From the IMG/VR virus record IMGVR_UViG_3300006927_000008, positions 1 to 55,764 of that record: a stretch of DNA of 55,764 bases; one strand, given 5' to 3'. Below the pieces are notes generated by a model, which saw nothing but the letters and a program-made list of their open reading frames with translations, searched no databases and was not told the DNA's origin. Shown piece by piece: positions 9,899-47,150 of the stretch. Made by a program: the position numbers and the translations under genes. The DNA comes from a virus (Duplodnaviria; Caudoviricetes). Every line of letters begins with the position of its first letter. Position 1 is the stretch's first letter.

Positions 9899-9904
9899 AT
9901 ATTA

Positions 9905-9981: not shown

Positions 9982-9993
9982 AGAATAATGATC

Positions 9994-10091
9994 GCTCTGA
10001 CCAGGTCGCTCGACGTTCGATATAGGAAGCCCTCCGGCACGTGCAGCCAAGCCTCCTTCAGTTCCCCTATTTGTCGCCCTCATTGCAGAGC
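9994..10091 (-). ncRNA. candidate rod-like structured RNA
   Basis: Nested helices GCTCTG/CAGAGC, CGAC/GTCG, ATAGG/CCTAT, GGC/GCC filling an inter-tRNA spacer. Confidence 0.4.
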
Positions 10092-10095
10092 AATA

Positions 10096-10172
10096 TGGCG
10101 GCCAATGAGGGATTCGAACCCCCAACCTACGGTTTCGAAGACCGTGGCTCTAGTCCATTGAGCTAATTGGCC
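10096..10172 (-). tRNA. tRNA-Arg(TCG)
   Basis: ACGGT-CTTCGAA-ACCGT, CCA. Confidence 0.9.
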
Positions 10173-10175
10173 AAG

Positions 10176-10253
10176 TGGTGGGGCAGGTGGGATTTGAACC
10201 CACTATCACTCACTTATAAGACGAGCTCCTATACCAGAATTGGAATCTGCCCT
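10176..10253 (-). tRNA. tRNA-Ile(TAT)
   Basis: CTCGT-CTTATAA-GTGAG, CCA. Confidence 0.75.
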
Positions 10254-10263
10254 ACATGTTCTA

Positions 10264-10339
10264 TGGTGGGGATGACGGGAGTCGAACCCGTAACACACAG
10301 ATTTTAAGTCTGCTGCCTCTTCCATTGGGCTACACCCCC
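10264..10339 (-). tRNA. tRNA-Leu(TAA), short variable loop
   Basis: GCAGA-CTTAAAA-TCTGT, CCA. Confidence 0.85.
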
Positions 10340-10340
10340 A

Positions 10341-10724
10341 TTATACTCGTGTCACCTTCTCTGTCTTATATATAGCACCAATGGTATCGAATTTGACAGA
10401 ACCTTGATATCTAATCAAAACAAGTACGTAATGTGAATCGATGCTGTGCCTTTTGAGCATATCGGCAAGCCACGGAGAAGTTTCAACCACCTTGTATGTC
10501 AAGCGATAATTACTAGACTCAGCCATTATAAATTCTTCACCAGGCTTCATATCCATAGCAGTAAGCGACTCTGGTTCTTGCTGTTCATATGAAAGTTCTG
10601 CTCCACATACGATACAAAAATTGTTTTTGCAGCCTTCGCAATAAGTCCTGCCACAACAAGAAACTTCTCTATACTTTATGGAACTTCCGTGTCTGTGTAA
10701 TGTACCAAGACCTTCATATATCAT
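10341..10724 (-). CDS. hypothetical protein with Cys-rich N-terminus
   Basis: 127 aa; AAAAGGTT RBS after tRNA. Confidence 0.6.
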   Translation of the reverse strand: MIYEGLGTLHRHGSSIKYREVSCCGRTYCEGCKNNFCIVCGAELSYEQQEPESLTAMDMKPGEEFIMAESSNYRLTYKVVETSPWLADMLKRHSIDSHYVLVLIRYQGSVKFDTIGAIYKTEKVTRV

Positions 10725-10743
10725 GACATAACCTTTTATGAAA

Positions 10744-10820
10744 TGGTAGGGGATGCTGGATTCGAACCAGCGACCACCGGTTTAGAAGACCGGTATTCTA
10801 GTCCACTGAATTAATCCCCC
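10744..10820 (-). tRNA. tRNA-Arg(TCT)
   Basis: CCGGT-CTTCTAA-ACCGG, CCA. Confidence 0.9.
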
Positions 10821-10997
10821 AATATATTCTTCGTTGTATGCGAGGCTATAATGGACTTCCTTTATTTCCCATCCTTATGTATATCTATAATCCACAACGG
10901 TGTAAAAGTATACCAAAACCTGCTTGAGAACCATTGTTTAAGCCGCTTTACAGAGGCTCTAAGAGCATTGAATCTCTGCTCCACATGAATATATGGA

Positions 10998-11072
10998 TGG
11001 AGCCAGCAGTGGGATTCGAACCCACGATCTCCCGATTACGAAACAGGTGCTTTATCACTAAGCGATGCCGGC
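10998..11072 (-). tRNA. tRNA-Thr(CGT)
   Basis: Loop TT-CGT-AA, GCC/GGC-T-CCA acceptor. Confidence 0.85.
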
Positions 11073-11079
11073 ATTAATA

Positions 11080-11172
11080 TGGAGGACCAGAAGGGAATCG
11101 AACCCTCAATGTGTCGTTAACTGTTGCTAGGTTAAAAGCCTAGTGCTGACAACCACTATCAGCGTCTGGTCC
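11080..11172 (-). tRNA. tRNA-Lys(TTT) with long variable region
   Basis: CTAGG-CTTTTAA-CCTAG, about 19-nt variable region, CCA. Confidence 0.7.
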
Positions 11173-11173
11173 A

Positions 11174-11284
11174 CAGTGATAAAGTCGCCAGCGCTGGTGC
11201 TTGTTATCCAGCTTTCGGCTCGGTGACGTCTGCAGTACGTCCAAGCAAGGCAGATCATAGTTCATCCTGAATCTGAAGTCACTG
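11174..11284 (-). ncRNA. candidate multibranch structured RNA
   Basis: CAGTGA/TCACTG closing helix with CAGAT/ATCTG, TGCTTG/CAAGCA, GACGT/ACGTC and AGC-CGAAA-GCT inside. Confidence 0.45.
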
Positions 11285-11291
11285 GCTATTA

Positions 11292-11363
11292 TGGTTGCAG
11301 GACTGGGTTTCGATCCCAACGTCTCGGGGTTATGATTCCTGAGTGGTCGCCAGACCTCCTGCA
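11292..11363 (-). tRNA. divergent initiator-like tRNA-Met(CAT)
   Basis: TGCAGG...CCTGCAACCA acceptor, CAT loop, tiny D arm, mismatched anticodon stem. Confidence 0.5.
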
Positions 11364-11639
11364 TCAATTTTAGTATACCGAGAGTTCTCTGTTTCCACGT
11401 ACAGGGACCGCGGGTTGCACGTGACACAAGACCATTCCGCTTGCGGGCGGGAGAATGTAAGGGCGGTAATCGCATCTACATAGCTTCGAAACTACGATCA
11501 TCTCGGTAACATCATTTACAAAAACAATGAAACAATAGATCCAATACTGAATGCAACTCCAGCACAAAGTGGGAGATATCAAACACCACAGAAATCATAG
11601 AATCTATCATTCAAACTATCTTGTTCCACTAGAGCCTCC

Positions 11640-11909
11640 TTACGGTTTAAACTTCTTCACGACTGTTGTCACGACCTCAGCTTCGTCAATGATATGAGGA
11701 TATAGATTTGCTGTATCCACAATGTCAAAAAGCTCAGCCATAATCTTCAAGTTCTCTTCATAAGTCCGTGTGGTCCATTGGTCCATAAACCATTTGATCT
11801 CTGCTTCATCACAACCACTCTGCTTCATAGCATTTCTGGCTGTGGCCATCAATACGAAAGCATTTCCATCAGGACCTGAAAGATCGATGATTAACTGAGG
11901 CTTATTCAT
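11640..11909 (-). CDS. phage hypothetical protein (GPDGNAF motif)
   Basis: GAAAGGTT RBS; IDLSGPDGNAF motif I recognise from phage proteins. Confidence 0.7.
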   Translation of the reverse strand: MNKPQLIIDLSGPDGNAFVLMATARNAMKQSGCDEAEIKWFMDQWTTRTYEENLKIMAELFDIVDTANLYPHIIDEAEVVTTVVKKFKP

Positions 11910-11927
11910 TGTAACCTTTCTTTGTTA

Positions 11928-12107
11928 TGGCGCAGTGGGGAGGAATCGAACCTATATCATTTCGCTATTACCTGTCGGCAATCCGCCATCGCAGGGGTCA
12001 TATGTATTTCTCTACTGACGGAAAGTAGATTCACATACGAACTGATATAAAATGATAGCCGACCTTCTCATAGATAATGAGGCGCTCTACCACTAAACTA
12101 CCACCGC
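11928..12107 (-). tRNA. tRNA-Asp-like (anticodon ATC) interrupted by a 105-nt structured insert in the T-stem
   Basis: Removing 11954-12058 restores GCGGTGG...CTCA-TTATCTA-TGAG...GGAGG-TTCGATT-CCTCC-CCACTGC-G-CCA. Confidence 0.7.
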
Positions 12108-12115
12108 ACAAAATA

Positions 12116-12193
12116 TGGTACACGTGAGGGGACTCGAACCCCCATCGACGAGAGTGAAAATCTCGCATCCTAGTCCAATTAGACGACACGTGC
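12116..12193 (-). tRNA. tRNA-Glu(TTC)
   Basis: CGAGA-TTTTCAC-TCTCG, CCA. Confidence 0.9.
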
Positions 12194-12200
12194 ATATTAA

Positions 12201-12306
12201 CTAGCGAGGTTCAAAAGGTATCTCGAGATTTCCTCTATTCCCCCTTACCAACGACTTAATCCTTCAGGGATTCGAACCCTATTTTCCCCCTCACGGCAAC
12301 ATCCCC
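12201..12306 (-). ncRNA. candidate T-arm-containing non-tRNA RNA
   Basis: AGGG-TTCGAAT-CCCT hairpin inside a GTGAGG/CCTCGC helix; no CCA or anticodon arm. Confidence 0.4.
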
Positions 12307-12310
12307 ATTA

Positions 12311-12387
12311 TGGTGGGCGCCAAGGGTAACGATCCCTTTATCTTCCGCGTATCAGACGGAGGCATTTACCATTTATGCTAGACGCCT
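12311..12387 (-). tRNA. tRNA-Ile(GAT)
   Basis: TCCGT-CTGATAC-GCGGA, CCA; atypical T-loop ATCGTTA. Confidence 0.8.
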
Positions 12388-12445
12388 ACAGTACTTTTTC
12401 TTGCCTTGCCAACCCCAACTCTCTGTCTTAGAACCTTTCATATTA

Positions 12446-12519
12446 TGGCGGAACCGAGGGGCCATGATCCCCCACCTACTCCCGTGACAGGGGAGTGCTC
12501 TACATTAAGCTACGATTCC
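12446..12519 (-). tRNA. tRNA-Asp(GTC)
   Basis: CTCCC-CTGTCAC-GGGAG, G73, CCA. Confidence 0.85.
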
Positions 12520-12769
12520 ATTTTCTTTATCAATTTACTGTATCGTCTCTATGTGTCGAGTCGATAGTCAAATCTCTTTTGCAATGTTGGTCATCAGTCT
12601 GCCGAAGAGCTATGGCAGTTCTGCCTCTTTTCAAAGTGTATGGTGTATAGTTACCACCATATTTTGACCAAGTGAATTTGTCTCCTTTATATGGGAGACG
12701 TTTAACTTCTACAGTATCCATGATTATTCTCCTTACAACTAATATAATCAATTTCTGGACAATTGTAAA

Positions 12770-13201
12770 CTACTTTGCATCTTTTGTGCCATAGACGATA
12801 TGACCCATATAGATCTGGATGATGAAGAAGAATCCGGTTACGAACCAGCCGGCAGCGGCCATCAATGTAACAATGCCGATATCATAAGTTATGTCAACCC
12901 AACGTGGAACTGGGCGAGCGCAGGCCATTTTCCGAAACACCTCCAGTATCGCCTCTTTCTTCTTTTTGATATCATCTGTCTCATTAAATCCGGTAGTTTC
13001 TTCTTCTACCAGGTGGGCAATTAACTTCGCAAAACCTATCATACCACCAACGATGATGGATATGAAGATTGTCCACCAAGCATATAGCCAAGCTATATTG
13101 CTAGCCCAACCTATATCATATACTGTCCCTGCGACCATCGAGGCGGCGAATAATGTATTCATAACTACCCACCTGAAAGCTTTACCTTTTTTCTTAGCCA
13201 T
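12770..13201 (-). CDS. hypothetical membrane protein
   Basis: 143 aa, 3-4 hydrophobic segments; GAAAGGTT RBS after tRNA-Ser. Confidence 0.7.
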   Translation of the reverse strand: MAKKKGKAFRWVVMNTLFAASMVAGTVYDIGWASNIAWLYAWWTIFISIIVGGMIGFAKLIAHLVEEETTGFNETDDIKKKKEAILEVFRKMACARPVPRWVDITYDIGIVTLMAAAGWFVTGFFFIIQIYMGHIVYGTKDAK

Positions 13202-13216
13202 TCCAACCTTTCTGTA

Positions 13217-13305
13217 TGGCGGAGAGCCAGGGAATTGAACCCTGTGTGCCTTTTACAACACGACAGTTTAGCAAACTGCTTAGCAGACCAAATGCAATGC
13301 TCTCC
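13217..13305 (-). tRNA. tRNA-Ser(GCT)
   Basis: Loop TT-GCT-AA, long variable arm, G73. Confidence 0.85.
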
Positions 13306-13312
13306 ATTATTA

Positions 13313-13403
13313 TGGCGGAGGCGTAGAGAATCGAACTCTAGACGCAGTGTTTGCTACGCAGCCGGGTTCAAACCGGTGTCCTCGTCCATGCCGGACCACC
13401 TCC
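13313..13403 (-). tRNA. tRNA-Ser(TGA)
   Basis: Loop TT-TGA-AC, long variable arm, G73. Confidence 0.85.
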
Positions 13404-13422
13404 ATTTACAATCTTTCTTAAA

Positions 13423-13497
13423 TGGCTCCTGCCCAGGGAGTCGAACCCCGAACCGGTCGGTTAACAGCCGACTGCTCTGCCATTGAGCTAGACAGGA
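13423..13497 (-). tRNA. tRNA-Asn(GTT)
   Basis: GTCGG-CTGTTAA-CCGAC, TCC/GGA-G-CCA. Confidence 0.9.
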
Positions 13498-13505
13498 TCA
13501 TGTAG

Positions 13506-13582
13506 TGGCTGGCCTCCAAGGATTCGAACCTTGAATCGACGCCTTCAGAGGACGTTGCATTAGCCGGTTATGCTAGAGGCCA
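13506..13582 (-). tRNA. tRNA-Gln(CTG)
   Basis: Loop CT-CTG-AA, U1-A72, CCA. Confidence 0.85.
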
Positions 13583-13588
13583 TCATTC

Positions 13589-13966
13589 TTACAGCAGTGG
13601 TAGATCTCCAATCAACTGCTTGATCAAGTCTGAATCACATGGACCAAGTGATACACCAACCAAAGTATCTACGATAATCTTGTTCGAGTCCGATACGTTC
13701 ATCTGAACCGTATCAGTCCACTTATAACGAGGCACCTTACCGTCAGGATCGCGGCTGATGATATCTTCAAGGACCTCTCTGTTCGGCACCTTATGGACGA
13801 AGATGTATGGATCAGTCAGCCACGGCAAAAATTCATGCCATTCTTTTGGGTCCATAATCTGCTGCCTCATACACTCAGCATGGATATGAGCCACTTGTGC
13901 TGCCATCAACCCTGGAGTAAAACCAAGGTCAGTGCGGATCAGGATACTCTGTCGCAGGTTTGCCAT
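13589..13966 (-). CDS. pth2: peptidyl-tRNA hydrolase, Pth2 type
   Basis: QSILIRTDLG.TPGLMAAQVAH and TLVGVSLGP...IGDLPLL match the Pth2 family pattern. Confidence 0.8.
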   Translation of the reverse strand: MANLRQSILIRTDLGFTPGLMAAQVAHIHAECMRQQIMDPKEWHEFLPWLTDPYIFVHKVPNREVLEDIISRDPDGKVPRYKWTDTVQMNVSDSNKIIVDTLVGVSLGPCDSDLIKQLIGDLPLL

Positions 13967-14131
13967 TTATTCGTCCACCTCCGTGTAACCCTTCTTGTGC
14001 TTCTGCTTTCGAGAATAATGCTGACGATCTCCCTTGGAAGCGTGTGGCTGAGTTGCTCTTCCACCCTGGCCTCTGCGAATCTGTCGTCTGAGTTCCTCGT
14101 AATCGATACCAACTGCGTCCATGGTCTTCAT
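13967..14131 (-). CDS. 54-aa basic peptide with ArfA-like YxRKxKHK motif
   Basis: Translated by hand: MKTMDAVGIDYEELRRQIRRGQGGRATQPHASKGDRQHYSRKQKHKKGYTEVDE; own promoter (14162-14190) and CAGGA RBS. Confidence 0.5.
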   Translation of the reverse strand: MKTMDAVGIDYEELRRQIRRGQGGRATQPHASKGDRQHYSRKQKHKKGYTEVDE

Positions 14132-14195
14132 GGTTTTTCCTGTGTAAAAGTGTGTAGTCTAAATATAACCATTTGTACTGCGATTGTAAAGGCTT

Positions 14196-14597
14196 TTATA
14201 TATAATCTTCAACCCCTTTTTCATCACCATCATCTTCGAGGCAGTTCCAGGGAGTGGAACCATACCACTGTGGGTGCTCTTTCAGATAATCACCATCCAC
14301 TTCGACAACATCGACCTCGCCTGGGCCCGTGAGCCCGAATTCCTCGTGCAAATATTCATGTCGAGCGAAGTGTTCGGCTTGGGCTGGATTTTCTGCAACC
14401 ACTGCAGCCTTGACGATTGTTGATACCATGAAACACTTCAACGACGGTTCGGCTGGTGTGAGCGCCTCATCTTTGGCTGGAATCGATGCGATCAGCTTAT
14501 CCCTCTCTTCAGGGTCGAGTGACGCGATCCACTCCAATGCAACCTGCTCAAATGCCTTCACGTAATTTGCATCCTCCGTATCAGTAGCCATTTTCAA
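14196..14597 (-). CDS. acidic hypothetical protein
   Basis: 133 aa in a minus-strand operon. Confidence 0.6.
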   Translation of the reverse strand: MKMATDTEDANYVKAFEQVALEWIASLDPEERDKLIASIPAKDEALTPAEPSLKCFMVSTIVKAAVVAENPAQAEHFARHEYLHEEFGLTGPGEVDVVEVDGDYLKEHPQWYGSTPWNCLEDDGDEKGVEDYI

Positions 14598-14599
14598 TC

Positions 14600-14782
14600 C
14601 TATGATTCGGGTCCGAGGAATAATTCATCCCAGCAGGCGTCGGAGCACATCCCCGAAATCCACTGTTCGACATCCATGCTCGTTCCGTAGATCGATGCGA
14701 GCTCATGGGTCTCAAAAGTTGGAACGTATTCACGCCCGCAGTGAGGACACTTAAGAACCGCATTCAATTTCGTTTCAACCAT
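14600..14782 (-). CDS. small zinc-finger-like protein
   Basis: CPHC...CSDAC; GGAGG RBS; promoter at 14816-14844. Confidence 0.6.
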   Translation of the reverse strand: MVETKLNAVLKCPHCGREYVPTFETHELASIYGTSMDVEQWISGMCSDACWDELFLGPES

Positions 14783-14897
14783 TGTGCCTCCATATCCATT
14801 AAACCTTACATACTAAATATAGGCAATTTTGAGGGTATCGTAAACGTCTTTTCGGAACTAATTAACCTGTCGTAAATCCAATGTTTATGATGACTTA

Positions 14898-14971
14898 TGG
14901 AAGCCCCCGAGGGATTTGAACCCTCACCCAGCACGTTCAAAGCGTGCCTATGCTACTTACACCAAGGGGCT
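14898..14971 (-). tRNA. tRNA-Gln(TTG)
   Basis: GCACG-CTTTGAA-CGTGC, CCA. Confidence 0.85.
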
Positions 14972-14974
14972 ATA

Positions 14975-15055
14975 TGGTCGGGTGCTCAGGAATCGAACCT
15001 GGCTAGCGCAAGCGCTGGAGGGTTACAGCCTCCAATGTATCCCAGTACTCACCCG
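14975..15055 (-). tRNA. tRNA-Tyr(GTA) with C1:G72
   Basis: GGAGG-CTGTAAC-CCTCC, long variable arm, CGGGTG/CACCCG-A-CCA. Confidence 0.75.
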
Positions 15056-15058
15056 TTA

Positions 15059-15136
15059 TGGTGCTCGATGTAGGACTCGAACCTACGAAATCACCTGTAT
15101 GTCAAACAGGTCCCTTAGCCACTAGGGTAATCGAGC
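15059..15136 (-). tRNA. tRNA-Val(GAC)
   Basis: CCTGT-TTGACAT-ACAGG, CCA. Confidence 0.9.
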
Positions 15137-15139
15137 ATA

Positions 15140-15224
15140 TGGTGCTCATGACTGGATTCGAACCAGCGATCCCGAAGGAACAACGCCCTCAACGTTGCGC
15201 GTATACCAGTTTCGCCACATGAGC
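15140..15224 (-). tRNA. tRNA-Leu(GAG)
   Basis: CAACG-TTGAGGG-CGTTG, long variable arm, CCA. Confidence 0.9.
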
Positions 15225-15228
15225 ATAT

Positions 15229-15450
15229 TCATGATATTTCAGGTGTATGCATCTTTTCATCATACGGATATATTTCAAAGAAGTACGAAAATCCTTTGTA
15301 CTCAATTGCATAATCCAATATGGCCTTACATACGACCTTATTATAGAACTCTTCTATAGTCATCGAAGGAGTGAGAGTACCGCCTAACTTTCTGGCGAGA
15401 TCTATCTCATCACGTATCTTCGACTTCCTTGTCATTGAGAGTCTATACAT
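15229..15450 (-). CDS. small hypothetical protein
   Basis: AAAGGT RBS after tRNA-Thr. Confidence 0.55.
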   Translation of the reverse strand: MYRLSMTRKSKIRDEIDLARKLGGTLTPSMTIEEFYNKVVCKAILDYAIEYKGFSYFFEIYPYDEKMHTPEIS

Positions 15451-15472
15451 TTATTACCTTTATTCAAATAAA

Positions 15473-15549
15473 TGGAGCCGTAGGTGGGAATCGAACCCAC
15501 GATCTCTTCCTTACCAAGGAAGCGCCCTCACCTTGAAGACCTCTACGGC
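15473..15549 (-). tRNA. tRNA-Thr(GGT)
   Basis: CTTCC-TTGGTAA-GGAAG, CCA. Confidence 0.85.
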
Positions 15550-15665
15550 AATTTGTAGATATCGTTCTGTCGAATATAGTCATAAACACCAGCAGAAAGT
15601 AGATGTCTAATGCTGAGACCTTTTCAATTCTATCTCGTACCTCTGATGAAGAAACCTCCATTATG

Positions 15666-15738
15666 TGGTAGCCCTGGAGGGAGTTGAACCCCCTAGCTCT
15701 GGTTCGTAGCCGAAGCGCCTCAATCCCTAGGCAGGGCT
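15666..15738 (-). tRNA. tRNA-Arg(ACG)
   Basis: Loop CT-ACG-AA, CCA; weak D arm. Confidence 0.75.
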
Positions 15739-15836
15739 ATAGTCAATATCGAACTCAAACAGTTTTTAATGCAATTGGCCTGAAAAATTAATTCAGTTGA
15801 TACTCAGAGCCACGTAGAGGCTTGCATTGTTCTGAG

Positions 15837-15914
15837 TGGTTGACCGACGGGACTCGAACCCGCATACTCTCGATTCACAGTCGAGAACCTTAATTCCTTT
15901 AGGCTACGGTCAAC
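15837..15914 (-). tRNA. tRNA-His(GTG)
   Basis: CTCGA-CTGTGAA-TCGAG. Confidence 0.85.
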
Positions 15915-15942
15915 ACGGGTGAGGGAATTGAATCCCTCAATA

Positions 15943-16015
15943 TGGCACGGGTAGTAGGTATCGATCCCACTGCGATCGGGTTTGGAATCCAATCCGCTGG
16001 CCACAGCTTACCCGT
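15943..16015 (-). tRNA. tRNA-Trp(CCA)
   Basis: Loop TT-CCA-AA, G73, CCA; short D arm. Confidence 0.7.
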
Positions 16016-16190
16016 ATATTTCTATTTGATTCTCTGCTCTTTTCTTGGTACCGCTACTTCATCTCTCTTAAAGAAGAAAACATATCCACCGTAAAGTAAG
16101 ACAGCGGCAATACCAAGATACAACATCACATCACTTCCACCGCCACTTACTCCAACCGTTACTCCTTCAGTAACTCCATTCATAACCATA

Positions 16191-16267
16191 TGGTGCCCAT
16201 GGTAGGATTCGAACCTACAACACACAGCTTCTAAGGCTGCTGTCTCTTCCAATTGGACTACATGGGC
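16191..16267 (-). tRNA. tRNA-Leu(TAG), short variable loop
   Basis: GCAGC-CTTAGAA-GCTGT, CCA. Confidence 0.85.
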
Positions 16268-16272
16268 ATATT

Positions 16273-16459
16273 AAAGCGGAGCTCTATTCCATTAGGCCAT
16301 CACACCCGAAACGGACAGAATTGAAACACTGAAAACGTGATAAGCGAATCAGACGTTCAATTCCCCTCCTATCATTTGAAGCATCCGGATGGTGGCCGGA
16401 ATCTCTTGGCGAGCGAAAGTCGCCAAGGCTCTGTCTACCGATATTTGAGCTATGCTTCA
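16273..16459 (-). ncRNA. tRNA-like cloverleaf (16377-16459) with a 3' extension able to refold it
   Basis: TGAAGCA/TGCTTCA, GCTC/GAGC, CTTGGCGA-CTTTCGC-TCGCCAAG, TCCGG-CCACCAT-CCGGA; no CCA. Confidence 0.55.
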
Positions 16460-16462
16460 TAA

Positions 16463-16554
16463 TGGCTGGGGAAGTAGGACTCGAACCTACGTACCGTTTT
16501 CAACCGGTCGACCGCATTAACAGTGCGGGGCATTGCCAACTCTGCCACCTCGGT
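16463..16554 (-). tRNA. chimeric long-variable-arm tRNA with Asn(GTT) anticodon and non-pairing acceptor stem
   Basis: CCGCA-CTGTTAA-TGCGG; last 28 nt identical to the tRNA at 16701; 5' ACCGAGG does not pair with TTCCCCA. Confidence 0.55.
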
Positions 16555-16684
16555 ATATTTCTGTGTCTTCTTCAAGATCAATTTCATGACCACATTTGCA
16601 TCTGAAGTATCTGCCAGTGTCATCAACTCTTCGGTGACGATGGATCCAGTCTTCGTGGAAATTGCAGCCTTGATCTTCTTTCAT
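16517..16684 (-). CDS. 55-aa His/Cys-rich peptide
   Basis: GAAAGGTT RBS; MKEDQGCNFHEDWIHRHRRVDDTGRYFRCKCGHEIDL...; stop falls in the next tRNA anticodon loop. Confidence 0.45.
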   Translation of the reverse strand: MKEDQGCNFHEDWIHRHRRVDDTGRYFRCKCGHEIDLEEDTEIYRGGRVGNAPHC

Positions 16685-16700
16685 GATAACCTTTCAATAA

Positions 16701-16778
16701 TGGCTGGGGAAGTAGGACTCGAACCTACCTCATTTCCGGTTAACAGCCGGACGCTATCGCCTGGACAGCTCTTCCCCA
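16701..16778 (-). tRNA. tRNA-Asn(GTT)
   Basis: TCCGG-CTGTTAA-CCGGA, G73, CCA. Confidence 0.85.
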
Positions 16779-16786
16779 ATATATTA

Positions 16787-16863
16787 TGGTCAGGGTGGAA
16801 GGATTCGCACCCTCGGCTTCCTCGCCCCAAACGAGGCACTCTACTGGACTGAGTTACACCCTG
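16787..16863 (-). tRNA. tRNA-Pro(TGG)
   Basis: CCTCG-TTTGGGG-CGAGG, C1-G72, CCA. Confidence 0.9.
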
Positions 16864-17240
16864 ACGTATTCTTGTATAATACTCTCAACTAGAGAGCGGT
16901 GCTTCGAATGATAGTACTGATGATGGTTTGGACAAATTGGAACCAAATTCTTTGGGTCGTGATTTGTTTTATCGCCATCTGCATGATGAACCTCCACTGC
17001 AAGTTCTTCGCCGCATACTATACATTTCTTTTCATGGTGTGCAAAACATATCTTCCTATAGTTCTGGCCTTTCCAACAGCCATTATTTTCTCCACTACGA
17101 AAATATTTATTGGAACAGGCATAACCACATGTCTGCTTCTCTTTAGGACAACCTTTTTTTGCTTCAAATTCATCCCCACAAACCGGACAATTCTTCTTTA
17201 TCCACGGATACTGTGGGTTCTTCGTATATTGATTGGCCAT
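16854..17240 (-). CDS. HNH homing endonuclease
   Basis: CPVC, CGYAC, CIVCG, EVHHADGDKTNHDPKNLVPICPNHH. Confidence 0.85.
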   Translation of the reverse strand: MANQYTKNPQYPWIKKNCPVCGDEFEAKKGCPKEKQTCGYACSNKYFRSGENNGCWKGQNYRKICFAHHEKKCIVCGEELAVEVHHADGDKTNHDPKNLVPICPNHHQYYHSKHRSLVESIIQEYVRV

Positions 17241-17310
17241 TGCATTCCCCTTTCGCAATAAATATCATTGCCTAAGGTTTGGAATACATCCAAATCAATA
17301 GCACATATTA

Positions 17311-17385
17311 TGGAGGCCCCGTTGGGAGTCGAACCCAATAGGAAATCGCTTTGCAGGCGACCCGCTTGCCGTTGGCTTCGGAGCC
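17311..17385 (-). tRNA. tRNA-Cys(GCA)
   Basis: Loop CT-GCA-AA, U73, CCA. Confidence 0.85.
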
Positions 17386-17417
17386 GAATATTTAGGTTAC
17401 TTTATCATCCGTCCTTT

Positions 17418-17582
17418 GGCCACCACAGCCGCAGGGTTGAGAATCAATTTCGCCTGAGGTTGGACGTCATTCACTGGTTAGGATCCTAACTACTCAGCCT
17501 CAAATCGTGTGGATCAAGGGACTTAAACCCTTGTAGAGGAGATACATCCTCCATTGCATCGTAGCAATTAACTACGGTGGCC
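17418..17582 (-). ncRNA. candidate multibranch structured RNA with T-loop-like hairpin
   Basis: GGCCACC/GGTGGCC closure; CAAGGG-TTTAAGT-CCCTTG; GAGGA/TCCTC; TGAGGCTG/CAACCTCA; GTTAGGATCCTAAC palindrome. Confidence 0.5.
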
Positions 17583-17603
17583 GCTATCATGGCATCCCAA
17601 TTA

Positions 17604-17676
17604 TGGTGGAGAGTGGGAGAATCGAACTCCCATGGCTTCGGTGCAAGCGAGGCGTGTGACCCATCAGCAACTCCCC
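17604..17676 (-). tRNA. tRNA-Ala(TGC)
   Basis: Loop CT-TGC-AC, G3:U70, CCA. Confidence 0.85.
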
Positions 17677-17748
17677 AAATTTCGAGAGATAAGATACCGA
17701 AATATCTAATAGGCGTCCCTATGACAAAATTATCTCCCTCGTCCTGTA

Positions 17749-17842
17749 TGCTCTCTGTCAGGGTGGCAGGATTCGAACCTGCGTATTCTCGATTCCAGGT
17801 CGAGACGATAGCCGGACTTTCGTTACACCCTGACAGAGAGCA
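17749..17842 (-). tRNA. tRNA-Pro(TGG)-like with acceptor stem extended to 17 bp and no CCA
   Basis: CTCGA-CCTGGAA-TCGAG; TGCTCTCTGT-CAGGGTG/CACCCTG-ACAGAGAGCA. Confidence 0.6.
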
Positions 17843-17861
17843 CAACATATCCGTCGTAAAA

Positions 17862-17924
17862 TGGCCAGCAGATAAACATCGAAGAATAGGGTCATGAGCC
17901 CCGAGGGTCTTTCCTCGTCCGCTA
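17862..17924 (-). pseudogene. degenerate initiator-like tRNA-Met(CAT) lacking the T-stem
   Basis: TAGCGGA/TCTGCTG-G-CCA, GGG-CTCATGA-CCC, unpaired TTCGAT. Confidence 0.45.
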
Positions 17925-17927
17925 GTA

Positions 17928-18003
17928 TGGAGCCGTCTCTCAGATTCGAACTGAGTATCTCTACTTTACAAGAGTAGCGCAAATCCTAATTTGCTTAGAC
18001 GGC
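17928..18003 (-). tRNA. tRNA-Thr(TGT)
   Basis: CTACT-CTTGTAA-AGTAG, CCA. Confidence 0.85.
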
Positions 18004-18076
18004 AAGTTTGCCAGGTGTCCTATACTTAGACGATAGACTGCGAGCTAGGCATTTCTCCTAACATTTCCTGGACCAA

Positions 18077-18151
18077 TGGAAGCGGGCGAGGTTGCTGCCA
18101 CCTCTAGCTACCCGGATTATGAGTCCGGGAGGATCACTGGATCTACCCGCG
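18077..18151 (-). tRNA. tRNA-Met(CAT), initiator-like, atypical T-loop
   Basis: CGCGGG start with 1:72 mismatch; CCGGA-CTCATAA-TCCGG; CCA. Confidence 0.65.
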
Positions 18152-18191
18152 GATCGTACTGTGACATTACATCCGCCACGTCTTAAGTGCC

Positions 18192-18319
18192 TGAAGATGT
18201 GGAGTCGAACCACTTGCGAACCTGCTCGGCCAGCGTCCTTTGACGGAGCCTCTGAGGAATCGAACCTCTTTCATCCCGTGTCCGCGGAGACATTAGGGAA
18301 ACCACCAACGGCGTCTTCA
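18192..18319 (-). ncRNA. tRNA-like RNA with two T-arms
   Basis: TGAAGA/TCTTCA closure; GAGG-TTCGATT-CCTC and GTGG-TTCGACT-CCAC. Confidence 0.55.
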
Positions 18320-18324
18320 AAATA

Positions 18325-18400
18325 TGGAGGGGTATACGGGAATCGAACCCGTCTATCTTGGTTGGAAGCCAAGCATCTTATACCGATGGATCAATACCCC
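18325..18400 (-). tRNA. tRNA-Gly(TCC)
   Basis: CTTGG-CTTCCAA-CCAAG, U73, CCA. Confidence 0.9.
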
Positions 18401-18407
18401 AAAACTA

Positions 18408-18470
18408 TGATGGAGATGGATGGGAATCGAACCCGCGTCTTCCGGTACTCTGCCACTGAGTTACCATCCC
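18408..18470 (-). ncRNA. tRNA-like RNA without anticodon arm
   Basis: GGGATGG-TA-ACTC-AGTGGCA-GAGT-ACCGGAAGAC-GCGGG-TTCGATT-CCCAT-CCATCTC-CATCA. Confidence 0.6.
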
Positions 18471-18476
18471 ACTTTA

Positions 18477-18552
18477 TGGTGGAGGCCCCGGGAATTGAAC
18501 CCAGTTGTCTGGTACTTCAAGCCAGCGCATTGACCACAATTGCTTGACCTCC
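18477..18552 (-). tRNA. tRNA-Phe(GAA)
   Basis: Loop TT-GAA-GT, A73, CCA. Confidence 0.75.
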
Positions 18553-45426: not shown

Positions 45427-45505
45427 ACAGACTTCAAAGTTCAGAGCGGCTTAACGCTGAGAAACGGGGGTAGAATCCGGGTTCTCGAGCGGGTTTTTGC
45501 ATACT

Positions 45506-45543
45506 AAAAAGGGCCAAGGGGATTAACTCTTTCCCCCTGACCC
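45506..45543 (-). terminator. intrinsic terminator
   Basis: GGGTCAGGGGGA-loop-TCCCCTTGGCCC-TTTTT. Confidence 0.75.
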
Positions 45544-45736
45544 TGGACTGCTTTATGTGTTTAGAGCTACTTCACATTGATAAATGGAATAGCTCCACCT
45601 TCACCGGTCACAGTATTGTTTCATCTATACCTACATCTTGCGATTGCCTTCCTTACATGGTTGATGACAACTGTAGTATGCGCTCTTCTCTTTCGACCAT
45701 TAGCTTGTAAACGATAGATATGCTTTTTCTGAATTT

Positions 45737-46243
45737 TCAATGGAACCACCTTTTCACTCTTCGTGGAAGATCGAAATTGTCAAGATGAGATTGGTCAATA
45801 CCAACCACATTAACAATGAATTCAAGTAGTGCTTTCAATTCCTTTTTCGTTGCATCGCGAGGGATAAGAAGATCACGCTCTTTTCCATCATATAAACTAT
45901 GGTTATGTAGACCGAGACCATGAAGACCGTCTACAGCATCTGCCAAATCATCTTCAGCTTCATCATCGTATTCGTCATCATATTCATCCTCTTCTTCCAT
46001 CATCTGCAACATTCTTTCGGTGAGTTCATCTACTTCTTCATCTTCATAAAGAGCACTGTCATCATCATCATACTCACCGTTCTCTTCGTCGTAGTCGACT
46101 TCTTCATCAACATTTACTGTAGGACGCAATACTCCAGGTGCTACCTCTTCTTCCTCTTCTGGAGGTGAGCAATAGATTTCATCTGATTCGTCTTCATGAG
46201 AGAGTAATGCATCAACTTCTTTTTGTGATAGGATGTCACCCAC
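45737..46243 (-). CDS. acidic protein with FliM-like N-terminal peptide
   Basis: AAGGAG RBS with GTG start; MGDILSQKEVDALL followed by a D/E-rich tract. Confidence 0.7.
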   Translation of the reverse strand: MGDILSQKEVDALLSHEDESDEIYCSPPEEEEEVAPGVLRPTVNVDEEVDYDEENGEYDDDDSALYEDEEVDELTERMLQMMEEEDEYDDEYDDEAEDDLADAVDGLHGLGLHNHSLYDGKERDLLIPRDATKKELKALLEFIVNVVGIDQSHLDNFDLPRRVKRWFH

Positions 46244-46262: not shown

Positions 46263-46551
46263 ATTGTTCCGATAAATAGCCAGTTGTGTAGAGTGATCAG
46301 AGAAAAAGATCAACACAAGTTCTGGATTTTTCCAGTGGATTCTCCACTCAATACTTTAGCCTTGCGCACTTGATACTTGAACCGGCATTATTTATCGACA
46401 TTGCCGTATGTCTTAAACTTGAGCGCTTAAGGCTTGAGACTTTATAGGTTGCCCTAACGGGCTGCATTATATAGTCTATTATATAGAGTTCCATTCTATC
46501 GCTGATGGAGCGCGTTTCCCTATTTCCTCCTGTTTACATCTACGAAACAAT
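46263..46551 (-). ncRNA. candidate ~290-nt structured RNA with tandem AAG repeats
   Basis: Terminal helix ATTGTTTCG-TAGAT/ATTTA-T-CGGAACAAT; nine AAG units spaced 6-8 nt in two clusters; no ORF in the track. Confidence 0.6.
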
Positions 46552-46558
46552 CGATATG

Positions 46559-47074
46559 TTAAAACCCGATTACGTCTGTGGTCGCGTTGACCACTTCAAG
46601 AGTTCCATCAATTGACTCGATGCGATCTCTATGAGCAGCCAGATTACGCATCCTATCCTTTTCATCGTAATACCTCACGATCTGAACAGACAGCTCACCA
46701 GGACGGTCCTGGCCTCGAAGGCGATGCTGACCTTCCTTATCATTGAGAGCCATAAGAGACTCGGTCTGCATCTTGCCCAACTTGCGGCGAATAACCAACC
46801 ACTCGCTGACAGTTTTGGTCACACCACCAATTGTTACGATGGTGGCAAGGTTGGTCTTTTCCAACCCAGTCTTAAGATCCAAATACCGATTGAACAAATC
46901 GGTGTTGGCCTGCAGGAGCGAAGTGACCTCAGTCATCTGCTCGCGTTCAGAACCCATGATTGGCTTTTCAATGCTTGTACCAGAAGCCAACCTGGTGATT
47001 TCCACGTTATTGTGGTTCGTCTTCTTTTCGATGATTCGAAGTTCCTTGAGCGCCTGAACAACTTTAAGTGCCAT
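46559..47074 (-). CDS. coiled-coil protein (resembles DIP1984/DUF6847-type proteins)
   Basis: M.V.QALKEL, TN..T.V.I, TV.EW, ID..L...NATT pattern; AAGGAGG RBS; family name from memory. Confidence 0.6.
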   Translation of the reverse strand: MALKVVQALKELRIIEKKTNHNNVEITRLASGTSIEKPIMGSEREQMTEVTSLLQANTDLFNRYLDLKTGLEKTNLATIVTIGGVTKTVSEWLVIRRKLGKMQTESLMALNDKEGQHRLRGQDRPGELSVQIVRYYDEKDRMRNLAAHRDRIESIDGTLEVVNATTDVIGF

Positions 47075-47150
47075 TGAGCACCTCCTTATGTGGGTGTGTT
47101 TTCCTATTGTCTTGCAAATATAAGACGCACACCCAGAAAATTAAACCACC

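What the first reader, a model, noticed from the sequence alone, without database searches (positions are those of the whole stretch)
46263..47145. Coiled-coil protein gene followed by a ~290-nt RNA with periodic AAG repeats (possible protein-RNA module)
Seen: a promoter (47117-47145) and strong RBS drive a 171-aa helical protein. Directly after its stop is a stretch with no ORF whose ends pair (ATTGTTTCG-TAGAT with ATTTA-T-CGGAACAAT). Inside are two clusters of AAG triplets at 6-8 nt spacing (TAAAG-TCTCAAG-CCTTAAG-CGCTCAAG-TTTAAG and TTCAAG-TATCAAG-TGCGCAAG-GCTAAAG) separated by a CGGCA/TGCCG hairpin, plus GTGGA/TCCAC, CTGGA/TCCAG and TGATC/GATCA hairpins. Established: spaced trinucleotide repeats are how oligomeric proteins such as TRAP bind RNA. 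Inference: the protein oligomerises on this RNA as a two-component ribonucleoprotein or autoregulatory unit. My assignment to DIP1984/DUF6847-like proteins is from memory.
Basis: partly seen in the sequence, partly recalled or inferred. Interest (0 to 1): 0.78.

Follow-up and report, generated by a model that had tools for sequence, protein, structure and literature searches.

The report
Unnamed phage RNA with partner protein
Next to a small helical phage protein lies a 289-base, intricately folded RNA carrying eight evenly spaced AAG words, and the same gene-plus-RNA pair recurs in many uncultured phages and, in a diverged form, in the classic phage T5, where it has apparently gone unannotated.

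Summary
Window 46263-46551 (- strand, 289 nt) follows a 171-aa DIP1984-like/T5.085-like gene. It belongs to a conserved structured RNA family that matches no Rfam 15 family.

**Architecture**, supported by covariation:
- a closing stem;
- two H-type pseudoknots;
- a long-range pseudoknot;
- a 3' three-helix domain;
- two arrays of four U-N-A-A-G words at 7-8 nt spacing, each AAG letter held in 25-29 of 29 RNAs.

**Gene-RNA linkage.** Of 85 distinct homologous genes, 75 have the RNA on the same strand. Six others are cut by contig ends. All 16 RNAs found RNA-first have the gene beside them. None of 21 cellular DIP1984 loci has it.

**Cultured phages.** Diverged versions follow T5.085 in phage T5 (spacer in 451 phage records), Vequintavirinae (70 records) and Bacillus phage pW2. 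In pW2 the repeated word is UUAG.

**Open points.** Protein-RNA binding is inferred, not shown. The function is unknown.

The parts
46559..47074 (-). 171-aa helical protein, remote DIP1984 / phrog_1491 (T5.085-like) relative
   Evidence: ORF. phrog_1491 E 2.4e-7. NF038048 E 0.011, below its cutoff. AF2 model pLDDT 96.8. Fold match to 3kdq, Z 12.4. hhalign to cellular DIP1984, 97.7%.
46263..46551 (-). whole structured RNA (type 1), 289 nt from the 5' to the 3' strand of closing stem P1
   Evidence: nhmmer hit 46549-46263, E 3.6e-42. The window was one of the profile's own rows. Coordinates. Covariation.
46538..46551 (-). P1 5' strand (ATTGTTTCG + TAGAT)
   Evidence: Family P1a is 84.5% paired, with changes on both sides in 6 of 6 pairs. 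Cognate against non-cognate partners: 0 of 5000 permutations as good.
46263..46277 (-). P1 3' strand (ATTTA-T-CGGAACAAT)
46533..46537 (-). conserved single-stranded GUAAA after P1
   Evidence: In the family, G 29/29, U 22/29, A 29/29, A 29/29, A 26/29.
46515..46523 (-). purine segment (AGGGAAA) that pairs with the P3c loop: long-range pseudoknot, 5' strand (coordinates approximate)
   Evidence: Pairing in the window was read from the sequence. In the family it is 79.9% paired against 58.7% shuffled, covariation 0.695 against 0.300, reached by 0 of 500 shuffles. Permutation test 0 of 5000.
46490..46514 (-). 5' H-type pseudoknot PK1: stem 1 CGC/GCG, stem 2 TCCAT/ATGGA
   Evidence: Coordinates. 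Stem 2 cognate against non-cognate: -6.34 against -3.35 kcal/mol, 0 of 5000.
46451..46486 (-). variable region with two hairpins; homologues carry other hairpins or a whole tRNA gene here
   Evidence: alignment A4; nested tRNAs
46412..46444 (-). AAG array 1: TAAAG, TCAAG, TTAAG, TCAAG, plus TTAAG that runs into the central pseudoknot
   Evidence: Positions. Conservation of U-N-A-A-G.
46383..46412 (-). central H-type pseudoknot: stem 1 GACAT/ATGTC, stem 2 CGGCA/TGCCG
   Evidence: Stem 1 is 93.1% paired, with pair types CG 17/GC 10 and UA 14/AU 13. Both stems: 0 of 5000.
46354..46380 (-). AAG array 2: TCAAG, TCAAG, GCAAG, TAAAG
46335..46347 (-). variable hairpin GTGGA/TCCAC
   Evidence: Present in most rows of A4 and absent in several.
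46325..46334 (-). conserved single strand UGGAAAAAUC
   Evidence: Columns 331-338 are held in 21-29 of 29 rows.
46280..46325 (-). 3' domain: P3a CCAG/CTGG, P3b TTGTGT/ACACAA, P3c TGATC/GATCA; the pyrimidine loop of P3c is the 3' strand of the long-range pseudoknot
   Evidence: P3a is 100% paired, with changes on both sides in 3 of 4 pairs. P3b: 0 of 5000. Loop pairing.
45737..46243 (-). next gene: 168-aa very acidic protein whose RBS starts 7 nt after the RNA; not part of the conserved module
   Evidence: ORF. No relative lies beside any of the 93 homologous loci compared.

Best explanation
**What it is.** The spacer encodes a stand-alone, highly structured non-coding RNA of 289 nt. It is the obligate genetic partner of the adjacent 171-aa helical protein.

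**How it most likely works.**
- The RNA is transcribed with the gene, on the same strand.
- It folds into a compact core. The core is closed by a stem between its two ends and locked by three pseudoknots.
- The core presents two single-stranded arrays of four U-N-A-A-G words, spaced 7-8 nt apart.
- The protein self-associates, at least as a symmetric dimer. Several copies are proposed to load onto the arrays, one word per binding site, giving a defined ribonucleoprotein particle.

**What the particle does is unknown.** The module moves as a self-contained unit through unrelated phage genomes. It often sits in or beside tRNA gene clusters, and in the sister RNA type it holds a tRNA gene inside itself. 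My best guess is therefore an accessory role in take-over of host RNA or translation, or in counter-defence. I do not favour virion structure.

**Shown.** The RNA family, its fold, the conserved words, and the gene-RNA linkage.

**Inferred.** Transcription, binding, the words as binding sites, stoichiometry and role.

**My odds.**
- Real structured RNA functionally coupled to the protein: about 0.95.
- Direct binding: about 0.7.
- The AAG words are the binding sites: about 0.5.
For: **1. Conserved RNA.** nhmmer profiles find it at E <= 1e-5 beside 75 of 85 distinct homologous genes, always on the gene's strand.
- Median gap to the gene is 27 nt.
- Four RNAs lie upstream of the gene, and these four form one protein subclade.
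- The profiles were built from 24 and 20 of these same loci.
- Independent sets: 8 of 10 genome-contig loci have the RNA, and the other 2 are cut within 112 nt.

**2. RNA-first scans.**
- Of 106 pattern matches, 9 are the RNA, and 9 of 9 have the gene beside them.
- Of 12 matches to a second pattern, 7 are the RNA, and 7 of 7 have the gene.

**3. Structure.**
- 74.0% of cells pair, against 61.5% shuffled (0 of 500 shuffles as high).
- Covariation score is 0.373, against 0.188 shuffled (0 of 500).
- With partners slid by 1-3 columns the score is 0.108-0.189.
- Long-range pseudoknot: covariation 0.695 against 0.300.
- Cognate strands pair better than strands swapped between sequences for 7 helices (0 of 5000 permutations each). 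Three of the four type-1 controls do not; the fourth is in the Against line.
- Many G-U pairs fix the strand as the gene's sense strand.

**4. Words.** At 8 positions the AAG letters are held in 25-29 of 29 RNAs. The U two bases before the AAG is held in 25-29 of 29 at seven of them; the seventh word has no aligned U column, and the window reads G there. The letters between the words vary.

**5. Co-divergence.** RNA type 1 (34 rows) and type 2 (38 rows) fall on the two sides of one protein-tree branch with SH-aLRT 100, so one change suffices (quick tree).

**6. Word change in a distant lineage.** In Bacillus phage pW2 a distant protein relative is followed by an RNA of the same layout. Its heptad word is UUAG instead of AAG.

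**7. Self-association.** The four-copy fold scored ipSAE 0.60 (median of 3 runs) against a best control of 0.00.
- That mark was reached by 20 of 30 proteins solved as pairs of one chain and 1 of 23 solved as single chains.
- The runs agree in at least 91% of contacts, and the partner's pLDDT is at least 82.
- The job had 4 copies and my own alignment, unlike the calibration.
- The related crystal entry 3kdq lists at least two chains, so the pass may come from memory.

**8. No known RNA family.** Rfam 15 gives only tRNAs above its cutoffs, in the window and in 20 loci. Nothing relevant appears at E <= 10 over the spacer.
Against: - No tool here tests protein-RNA binding, and no RNA-level data were obtained, so transcription and RNA ends are inferred.
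- The protein is near neutral in charge by my own count of its letters. No RNA-binding family matches it.
- Its most conserved motif, the C-terminal L-E-V-V-N-A-T-T-D-L, aligns with the same motif in cellular DIP1984 proteins. Those proteins have no such RNA nearby: 0 of 21 loci. The conserved site therefore need not be an AAG reader.
- The two arrays show slightly better cognate than swapped complementarity, -8.53 against -7.47 kcal/mol, with 32 of 5000 permutations as good. Some array bases may pair with each other rather than lie free.
- In the window alone the AAG count is not above chance.
- Four genes with enough flanking sequence lack a clear RNA: L029, L087, L094, and L081, which has only a weak, divergent match.
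- The type 1 / type 2 split is one evolutionary event. It shows joint inheritance, not repeated co-evolution.
- The links to T5, Vequintavirinae and pW2 rest on shared layout read from the sequences, on duplex calculations and on alignment A6. The type 1 and type 2 profiles do not detect them.
Confidence: 0.6

Rival explanations
1. The RNA works on its own or with a host partner. It could be an RNA-only machine, or a sponge whose U-N-A-A-G words soak up a host RNA-binding protein or nuclease. The neighbouring protein would then be a chaperone, a regulator or a separate co-expressed factor, not the reader of the words.
For: - The fold is intricate, with three pseudoknots, as in large RNA-only assemblies.
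- The protein's conserved motif is shared with cellular relatives that have no such RNA.
- No RNA-binding family matches the protein.
- Multi-site sponge RNAs such as CsrB are an established principle (recalled).
Against: - The gene and RNA stay together across very distant phages: 75 of 85 genes, 16 of 16 RNA-first hits, and the T5, Vequintavirinae and pW2 lineages.
- The repeated word differs in the pW2 lineage, where the protein is also most diverged. That is easier to explain if the phage's own protein reads the word.
Confidence: 0.25
2. The element is a cis-acting part of the protein's own mRNA. It could be an autoregulatory operator, a stabilising 3' end or a terminator, rather than a separate functional RNA.
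For: - It is usually within about 30 nt of the stop codon, on the same strand.
- In 12 of 29 type-1 copies a run of U follows the closing stem directly.
- Several loci have a terminator-like hairpin just after the RNA (read).
Against: - At 289 nt with three covarying pseudoknots it is far larger than known operators.
- It lies upstream of the gene in 4 distinct loci. It is separated from the gene by ORFs or tRNA genes, up to 2928 nt, in others.
- tRNA genes are nested inside it in at least 18 of 42 loci scanned.
- In the window it runs straight into the next gene's RBS with no terminator.
Confidence: 0.1
3. The repeats act at the DNA level. They would be iterons or a partition-type site bound by the adjacent helical dimer, like the heptad arrays bound by omega or the parC iterons bound by ParR.
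For: - Two arrays of 7-8 bp repeats flank a central element.
- A small protein that probably dimerises is encoded next to them.
- The omega and ParR comparison is recalled.
Against: - The surrounding sequence covaries to keep RNA helices, including many G-U pairs. These would be C-A mismatches on the other strand.
- The element always has the gene's orientation, 75 of 75.
- The words are asymmetric and never occur inverted in the alignment.
Confidence: 0.03
4. An ordinary spacer: promoters, a terminator or a decayed gene, with chance repeats.
For: - The AAG count alone is not above chance in the window.
- TATAAT-like strings occur in the variable region.
Against: Conservation across loci of 27-51% protein identity, covariation, and positional conservation of the words.
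Confidence: 0.01

Closest known systems
T5.085 of phage T5 and its downstream spacer (phrog_1491, widely annotated 'tail fiber protein')
   Same: - **Protein cluster.** All fall in phrog_1491: T5.085 at E 3.3e-82, the pW2 ORF at 2.5e-20, the window protein at 2.4e-7.
- **RNA layout in T5.** The gene is followed by a 363-nt unannotated spacer with the same layout. It has a long closing stem, a 5' pseudoknot, a loop-to-5'-segment pairing (AUCUUA/UAAGAU), about ten AAAG heptads, and a CCUAGA/UCUAGG helix before a GGCUG motif.
- **Fold energy.** z = -5.6.
   Different: - Protein identity is too low for pairwise detection. hhalign of the family against the single T5 protein gives only 35.8% over 52 columns.
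- The type 1 and type 2 RNA profiles do not detect the T5 RNA.
- T5 has one long array and no central pseudoknot that I could read.
- Neither T5.085 nor the spacer has a described function in the papers I could search.
DIP1984 family (NF038048) / DUF6847 (PF20935); crystal structure 3kdq
   Same: - Fold: Z 12.4, rmsd 5.7, 151 of 152 residues aligned.
- Profile-profile homology: 97.7%, E 1.5e-12, 158 columns.
- The T-N motif and the C-terminal N-x-T-x-D-L motif align.
   Different: - The window protein scores 15.9 bits against a 70-bit cutoff. It has no Pfam hit at E <= 0.1.
- Cellular members have no such RNA within 1.5 kb: 0 of 21 loci.
- I found no function for the cellular family in the searched papers.
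TRAP with the trp leader; HutP (proteins that read spaced triplets in RNA; recalled)
   Same: Several copies of a short word (GAG/UAG there, U-N-A-A-G here) separated by variable spacers. That is the signature of an oligomer binding one word per subunit.
   Different: - TRAP is a ring of beta-sandwich subunits with 2-3 nt spacers. Here the protein is a helical bundle and the period is 7-8 nt.
- The words sit inside a large folded RNA and not in an mRNA leader.
- Binding is not shown.
CsrA with CsrB/RsmZ sponge RNAs (recalled)
   Same: A dimeric protein and a dedicated RNA carrying many copies of its word.
   Different: - CsrB words sit mostly in hairpin loops of a loosely conserved RNA.
- The protein there is a global regulator encoded elsewhere.
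- Here gene and RNA are adjacent, and the RNA core is rigidly conserved.
Ro60 (Rsr) with bacterial Y RNAs such as YrlA (recalled)
   Same: A non-coding RNA whose two ends pair in a stem. It carries a tRNA-like module and is encoded next to its partner protein. It is also found in phages.
   Different: - No Y RNA family of Rfam matches.
- The protein has no TROVE domain: no Pfam hit, and the fold matches 3kdq.
- Here real tRNA genes with varied anticodons are nested, and only in some lineages.
Operator of T4 gene 32 mRNA (recalled)
   Same: An H-type pseudoknot next to a run of repeated A-rich words, on which a protein loads cooperatively.
   Different: - That is a short 5' leader of the protein's own mRNA.
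- Here the RNA is 289 nt, usually 3' of the gene, and movable relative to it.

Membership tests
DIP1984 family (NCBIfam NF038048) | score at or above the curated cutoff of 70 bits | tested here: not met
   The window protein scores 15.9 bits, E 0.011. Ten of 12 relatives match, with a best E of 1.7e-10.
DIP1984 family (NCBIfam NF038048) | same fold as the family's solved member (3kdq, C. diphtheriae) | tested here: met
   Foldseek prob 1.00, E 9.9e-3, TM 0.56/0.62. VIA-align Z 12.4, rmsd 5.7, 151 aligned of 152, with the next entry at 8.8. That 3kdq is DIP1984 itself is recalled; the entry title says only 'functionally unknown conserved protein'.
DIP1984 family (NCBIfam NF038048) | profile-level homology to members above the cutoff | tested here: met
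   hhalign of 107 phage proteins against 10 cellular members: 97.7%, E 1.5e-12, 158 columns.
DUF6847 (Pfam PF20935) | match to the Pfam model | tested here: not met
   No family at E <= 0.1 for the window protein. Six of 12 relatives match at E <= 1, best 3e-5.
PHROG 1491 (T5.085-like, labelled 'tail fiber protein') | match to the PHROG profile | tested here: met
   E 2.4e-7 over residues 4-104 of the window protein. T5.085 scores 3.3e-82. No call supports the 'tail fiber' label; see Noticed in passing.
any Rfam 15 RNA family | match at the family's gathering score | tested here: not met
   The window, 20 related loci and the T5-type locus give only tRNAs and one group I intron elsewhere. At E <= 10 the spacer has three chance-level snoRNA/miRNA rows.
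TRAP-type RNA-binding attenuation system | beta-sandwich subunits forming an 11-mer ring | tested here: not met
   The model is helical with one beta hairpin. The definition of TRAP is recalled.
TRAP-type RNA-binding attenuation system | protein binds the spaced triplets | not testable with these tools
   No tool here models protein with RNA.
Type III toxin-antitoxin (ToxIN-like) | antitoxin RNA made of tandem repeats of about 34-45 nt processed by the toxin | tested here: not met
   The repeat period is 7-8 nt, inside a non-repetitive folded RNA. The family definition is recalled.
Ro60 / Y RNA | TROVE-domain protein and a Y RNA model match | tested here: not met
   No Pfam hit. No Rfam Y RNA hit.

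The most novel reading that the evidence does not exclude
This is a previously unrecognised class of phage ribonucleoprotein.
- A small helical dimer reads heptad-spaced words on a dedicated, triple-pseudoknotted RNA. The word is U-N-A-A-G in the window's lineage, AAAG in T5 and UUAG in Bacillus phage pW2. Word and protein change together.
- It is present in phage T5 and several hundred sequenced relatives, as well as in large uncultured phages.
- The particle works on the tRNA or translation apparatus, or against a host defence that targets it. Such a role would explain why tRNA genes sit inside or beside the RNA.
Probability: 0.45. Interest if true: 0.88.

Novelty: categorically new. Interest (0 to 1): 0.84.

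Why it matters
- **Rarity.** Large, conserved, pseudoknotted non-coding RNAs with unknown roles are rare. They have repeatedly opened new biology, as with riboswitches, OLE, ROOL/GOLLD and bridge RNAs.
- **A built-in lead.** This one comes with a dedicated partner protein and a conserved array of short words, which gives a direct biochemical hypothesis.
- **A tractable system.** A diverged version follows gene T5.085 in phage T5 and in BASEL-collection phage Bas33 (HildyBeyeler), both of which grow on E. coli K-12. The question is therefore testable at once with standard genetics, pull-downs and cryo-EM.
- **Annotation errors.**
  - The spacer is unannotated in nearly all of the rows listed among 451 T5-like and 70 Vequintavirinae-like records.
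  - The gene is widely labelled 'tail fiber protein' without support.
- **A foothold for an unknown family.** The work links the uncharacterised cellular DIP1984 family to a possible nucleic-acid-related role.
- **Limits of the novelty claim.** It rests on Rfam 15 and on the open-access papers I could search. Older subscription literature on T5 stable RNAs and the supplements of papers could not be seen.

Tried and rejected
- **DNA and protein searches against cultured phages.**
  - blastn of the region: no match.
  - tblastn with the window protein and with P0006: no match.
- **Internal repeats.** The spacer has no second copy in the window or in the first 13 loci by blastn.
- **Synteny.** None of 7 neighbouring window proteins occurs beside any of the 93 homologous loci.
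- **Rfam.** Nothing at permissive thresholds.
- **Solved structures by sequence.** No DIP1984-like hit; best E 0.48.
- **Expression.** The look-up of sequencing runs listed 19 marine DNA runs and no RNA holder. Expression could not be examined, and read laying was not used.
- **RNA-first pattern scans were inefficient.**
  - The 3'-domain pattern gave 106 stretches. Of these, 97 are not the RNA; 63 of the regex matches have one length (51 nt) and look like one conserved coding segment.
  - The AAG-array pattern gave 12 stretches, none of them the RNA.
  - Whether the RNA ever occurs without the gene therefore remains only lightly tested.
- **Covariance model.** None was built. The full RNA exceeds the size the tool will calibrate, and nhmmer was enough for detection.
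- **Nested tRNAs and the AAG (Lys) word.** The idea that the nested tRNAs would all read AAG is rejected. Their anticodons vary, Thr-UGU being the commonest, and none of the 18 is Lys.
- **Small protein from the spacer.** Set aside on spacing grounds: the 48-aa ORF spans array spacers that are 7 or 8 nt long in different homologues. I did not look for the ORF in the homologues.
- **Literature.** Nine searches (and passages of PMC11464382) found nothing on this RNA, on T5.085 or on a function for DIP1984/DUF6847. Only search listings, abstract openings and those passages were read.
- **Tree.** The careful tree did not finish, so the quick tree is reported.
Full report
**Setting.** The window is a 55.8-kb fragment of a virus record, estimated about 26% complete. 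It carries 32 tRNA genes, a gp32-like SSB and a ClpP-like protease. Near-identical DNA occurs in marine metagenome runs.

**The gene.** The finding covers a 171-aa ORF at 46559-47074 (-) and the 315-nt spacer after it.
- No Pfam family matches the protein.
- It matches phrog_1491 weakly, E 2.4e-7.
- It matches NCBIfam DIP1984 far below the cutoff, 15.9 bits against 70.
- Its AlphaFold model is confident, pLDDT 96.8.
- Its only standout structural neighbour is 3kdq, an uncharacterised C. diphtheriae protein: Foldseek prob 1.00, and VIA-align Z 12.4 over 151 of 152 residues with the next entry at 8.8.
- A profile of 107 phage relatives aligns to a profile of 10 cellular DIP1984 proteins at 97.7%, E 1.5e-12.
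It does not hold as membership.

**The observation.**
- The spacer folds better than its shuffles: z -2.9, 0 of 100 as good.
- The minimum-energy fold closes it with the quoted end pairing.
- AAG alone is not enriched in the window: 9 against 7.7, reached by 697 of 2000 shuffles.
- T-N-A-A-G is enriched: 8 against 2.0, reached by 1 of 2000.
- From the window alone the case would be suggestive only.

**Relatives.**
- The protein has 1075 clusters of relatives at E <= 1e-3 in the 50%-identity library.
- I fetched 13 viral, 80 metagenome and 10 genome-contig loci.
- None shares the window's neighbouring genes.
- Reading the 450 nt after each stop showed an obviously homologous element in the closer relatives. 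It shows a second, related type in the distant ones, often with a tRNA gene in its middle.
- After dereplication to 85 distinct genes, nhmmer profiles of the two types find the RNA at E <= 1e-5 beside 75:
  - 34 type 1, downstream of the gene;
  - 37 type 2, downstream;
  - 4 type 2, upstream.
- All 75 are on the gene's strand, with a median gap of 27 nt and a maximum of 2928 nt.
- Of the 10 without the RNA, 6 have at most 112 nt of sequence after the gene. L081 has a weak divergent match. L029, L087 and L094 have none.
- The profiles were built from 24 and 20 of these loci, so those rows match by construction.
- The genome contigs set was independent. It gave 8 of 10, and the other 2 are cut by contig ends.

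**RNA-first scans.**
- All 9 verified RNAs among 106 pattern matches have the gene beside them. So do all 7 among 12 matches to a second pattern.
- The remaining matches are coding or chance sequence.
- A third pattern found no RNA at all.
- The reverse test is therefore positive but thin.

**Structure.** On a MAFFT alignment of 29 distinct type-1 RNAs (A4) I read a structure and tested it.

| Measure | Observed | Shuffled | Shuffles as high |
|---|---|---|---|
| Cells forming a standard pair | 74.0% | 61.5% | 0 of 500 |
| Covariation score | 0.373 | 0.188 | 0 of 500 |
| Covariation with partners slid 1-3 columns | 0.108-0.189 | - | - |

The best-behaved helices:
- P3a is 100% paired, with pair types CG 21/UA 8 and AU 14/GC 14.
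- Stem 1 of the central pseudoknot is 93.1% paired, with CG 17/GC 10 and UA 14/AU 13.
- P1a is 84.5% paired.

MAFFT places some pseudoknot strands in shifted columns, so I added an alignment-light test.
- For each helix I compared the duplex energy of a sequence's own two strands with strands swapped between sequences.
- Own partners won in 0 of 5000 permutations for P1, PK1 stem 2, both central-pseudoknot stems, P3a and P3b.
- An unrelated strand pair showed no effect, with 1994 of 5000 permutations as good.

A third, long-range pseudoknot joins the purine segment just 5' of PK1 to the loop of hairpin P3c.
- It is 79.9% paired against 58.7% shuffled, with covariation 0.695 against 0.300, reached by 0 of 500 shuffles.
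- The permutation test gives 0 of 5000 in both RNA types, and its three controls are flat.

Type 2 also keeps P1 and P3a, at 0 of 5000 each. Frequent G-U pairs show that the folded strand is the gene's sense strand.

Its 3' half belongs to P3a.

**The words.**
- Between the core helices lie two arrays of four words each.
- At the eight positions the three AAG letters are each held in 25-29 of 29 RNAs.
- The U two bases upstream of the AAG is held in 25-29 of 29 at seven of the eight words. The seventh word has no aligned U column, and the window reads G there.
- The intervening letters vary.
- The third spacer of array 1 is 7 nt in 13 RNAs and 8 nt in 16, which argues against a conserved reading frame.
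- A ninth word, UUAA(G/C), runs into the central pseudoknot.
- The two arrays show a slight excess of own-partner complementarity, with 32 of 5000 permutations as good. I leave this open.

**Partnership.**
- On a quick maximum-likelihood tree of 72 proteins, the 34 with type-1 RNA and the 38 with type-2 RNA are the two sides of one branch with SH-aLRT 100.
- The four loci with the RNA upstream form one subclade.
- This shows joint inheritance through deep divergence. It does not show repeated co-evolution.
- True cellular DIP1984 genes occur in 19 of 401 genomes of one phylum, giving 21 loci. None has the RNA within 1.5 kb. One simple 7-mer microsatellite was the only look-alike.
- A four-copy fold of the protein passed the tool's mark: 0.60 against a best control of 0.00.
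  - That mark was reached by 20 of 30 known homo-pairs and 1 of 23 single chains.
  - The runs agree in at least 91% of contacts, and the partner's pLDDT is at least 82.
  - The interface is a symmetric dimer.
  - The job differs from the calibration, and the pass may come from memory of 3kdq.

**tRNA link.**
- Rfam and ARAGORN find complete tRNA genes inside the RNA's variable region, between PK1 and the arrays, in at least 18 of 42 loci scanned.
- Their anticodons vary, and Thr-UGU is the commonest.
- If RNase P and RNase Z excise them, the RNA would become two pieces held together by P1 and the long-range pseudoknot. This step is inference.

**Cultured phages.**
- A type-1 family protein hit an unannotated 193-aa ORF in Bacillus phage pW2.
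- That ORF is followed by a spacer of about 390 nt. The spacer has:
  - a 16-bp closing stem;
  - GUAAA;
  - the CCUAGA/UCUAGG helix before GGCUG;
  - about eight heptads whose word is UUAG, not AAG.
- The pW2 ORF in turn hits 459 phage records, mostly T5-like.
- phrog_1491 covers T5.085 at E 3.3e-82 and the pW2 ORF at 2.5e-20.
- In T5, T5.085 occupies AY543070.1 43505-44143. It is followed by a 363-nt spacer that is unannotated apart from a 19-nt overlap with the next gene's promoter feature.
  - The spacer folds with z -5.6.
  - It shows the same layout, with about ten AAAG heptads.
  - It is found in 451 records, of which 438 cover at least 80% of it. Almost all listed rows have no feature under it.
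- A Vequintavirinae version (GAP31, PVP-SE1 and others) is in 70 records and is followed directly by tRNA-Thr.
- An alignment of nine T5 and Vequintavirinae RNAs shows invariant blocks, with compensatory changes in P1 and PK1 stem 2 (by reading).
- These links rest on shared layout. The type 1 and type 2 profiles do not reach them, and I ran no covariation statistics on them.

**What it most likely is.**
- It is a dedicated phage RNA and its partner protein, forming a ribonucleoprotein. I propose that several protein copies load on the heptad-spaced words.
- The shared C-terminal motif in RNA-less cellular relatives, and the lack of any binding test, hold my confidence down.
- The rivals are an RNA that acts alone or on a host factor, a cis element of the mRNA, and a DNA-level repeat site. 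I rank them 0.25, 0.10 and 0.03, for the reasons given in their sections.

**Novelty.**
- No Rfam 15 family matches.
- Nine literature searches found nothing on the RNA, on T5.085 or on a function for DIP1984/DUF6847. I saw only listings, abstract openings and passages of one paper.
- From memory, older work described stable RNAs of unknown function in the T5 tRNA region. I could not check whether any maps here. The T5 spacer lies at about 43 kb, outside the 29-38 kb deletions discussed in PMC11464382.

Noticed in passing
window 9417-18552 (-): An array of 32 tRNA genes covering most amino acids, all on the minus strand. The RNA module lies about 28 kb away from it, although in many other phages the module sits in or beside the tRNA cluster.
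   Followed up: partly
window 45427-45736 (-): A second spacer of about 310 nt, right after the acidic gene. About 190 nt past the stop it holds a strong GC-rich hairpin followed by a run of T (read). It has no Rfam hit at gathering scores and no similarity to the studied RNA.
   Followed up: no
window 45737-46243 (-): A 168-aa protein with long runs of Asp/Glu, starting 20 nt after the RNA. It has only a weak sub-threshold DUF7342 hit and no PHROG. It could be a DNA mimic or an anti-restriction-type protein. It is not linked to the module elsewhere.
   Followed up: no
L001, L003, L005, L007-L011, L013, L053, L060, L061, L063, L069, L080, L082, L091, L103: Complete tRNA genes with varied anticodons lie inside the type-2 RNA, between its 5' pseudoknot and the AAG arrays. 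Type-2 RNAs without a called tRNA often keep a T-arm-like GGTTCRANTCC hairpin at the same place.
   Followed up: partly
L264, L266, L267, L269, L270 (Vequintavirinae): A tRNA-Thr gene directly follows the RNA in five phages of this subfamily. Thr-UGU is also the commonest tRNA nested in type-2 RNAs.
   Followed up: no
T5-like and related phage records: T5.085-like genes are widely annotated 'tail fiber protein'. Nothing here supports that label. The model is a small helical bundle like 3kdq, and the gene sits among early or tRNA-region genes.
   Followed up: partly
L259 1917-2498 (Bacillus phage pW2, MK288021.1): A 193-aa ORF of this family is not annotated in the record. The stretch between a tRNA-Arg gene and the next CDS is blank.
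   Followed up: yes
L265 1966-2453 (Bacillus phage BM15): A 488-nt unannotated gap with AAAG-rich repeats follows gp63, another 'tail fiber protein' of this family. It lies just after an array of 11 tRNA genes. Its structure was not analysed.
   Followed up: no
A4 columns 402-417 (type-1 RNAs): In 12 of 29 RNAs a run of U follows the closing stem directly, as if the whole RNA served as a terminator hairpin. The window lacks this and runs into the next gene.
   Followed up: partly
L048 2565-2766: A group I intron match (63.6 bits, cutoff 50) lies next to tRNA genes, about 760 nt downstream of that locus's copy of the RNA.
   Followed up: no
L023, L035/L036, L040/L041: In some type-1 loci a small ORF is inserted between the protein gene and the RNA. 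The module thus tolerates insertions at the junction.
   Followed up: no
L227 729-805: A perfect tandem 7-mer microsatellite of 11 copies lies about 770 nt upstream of a cellular DIP1984 gene. It is unrelated to the structured RNA.
   Followed up: yes
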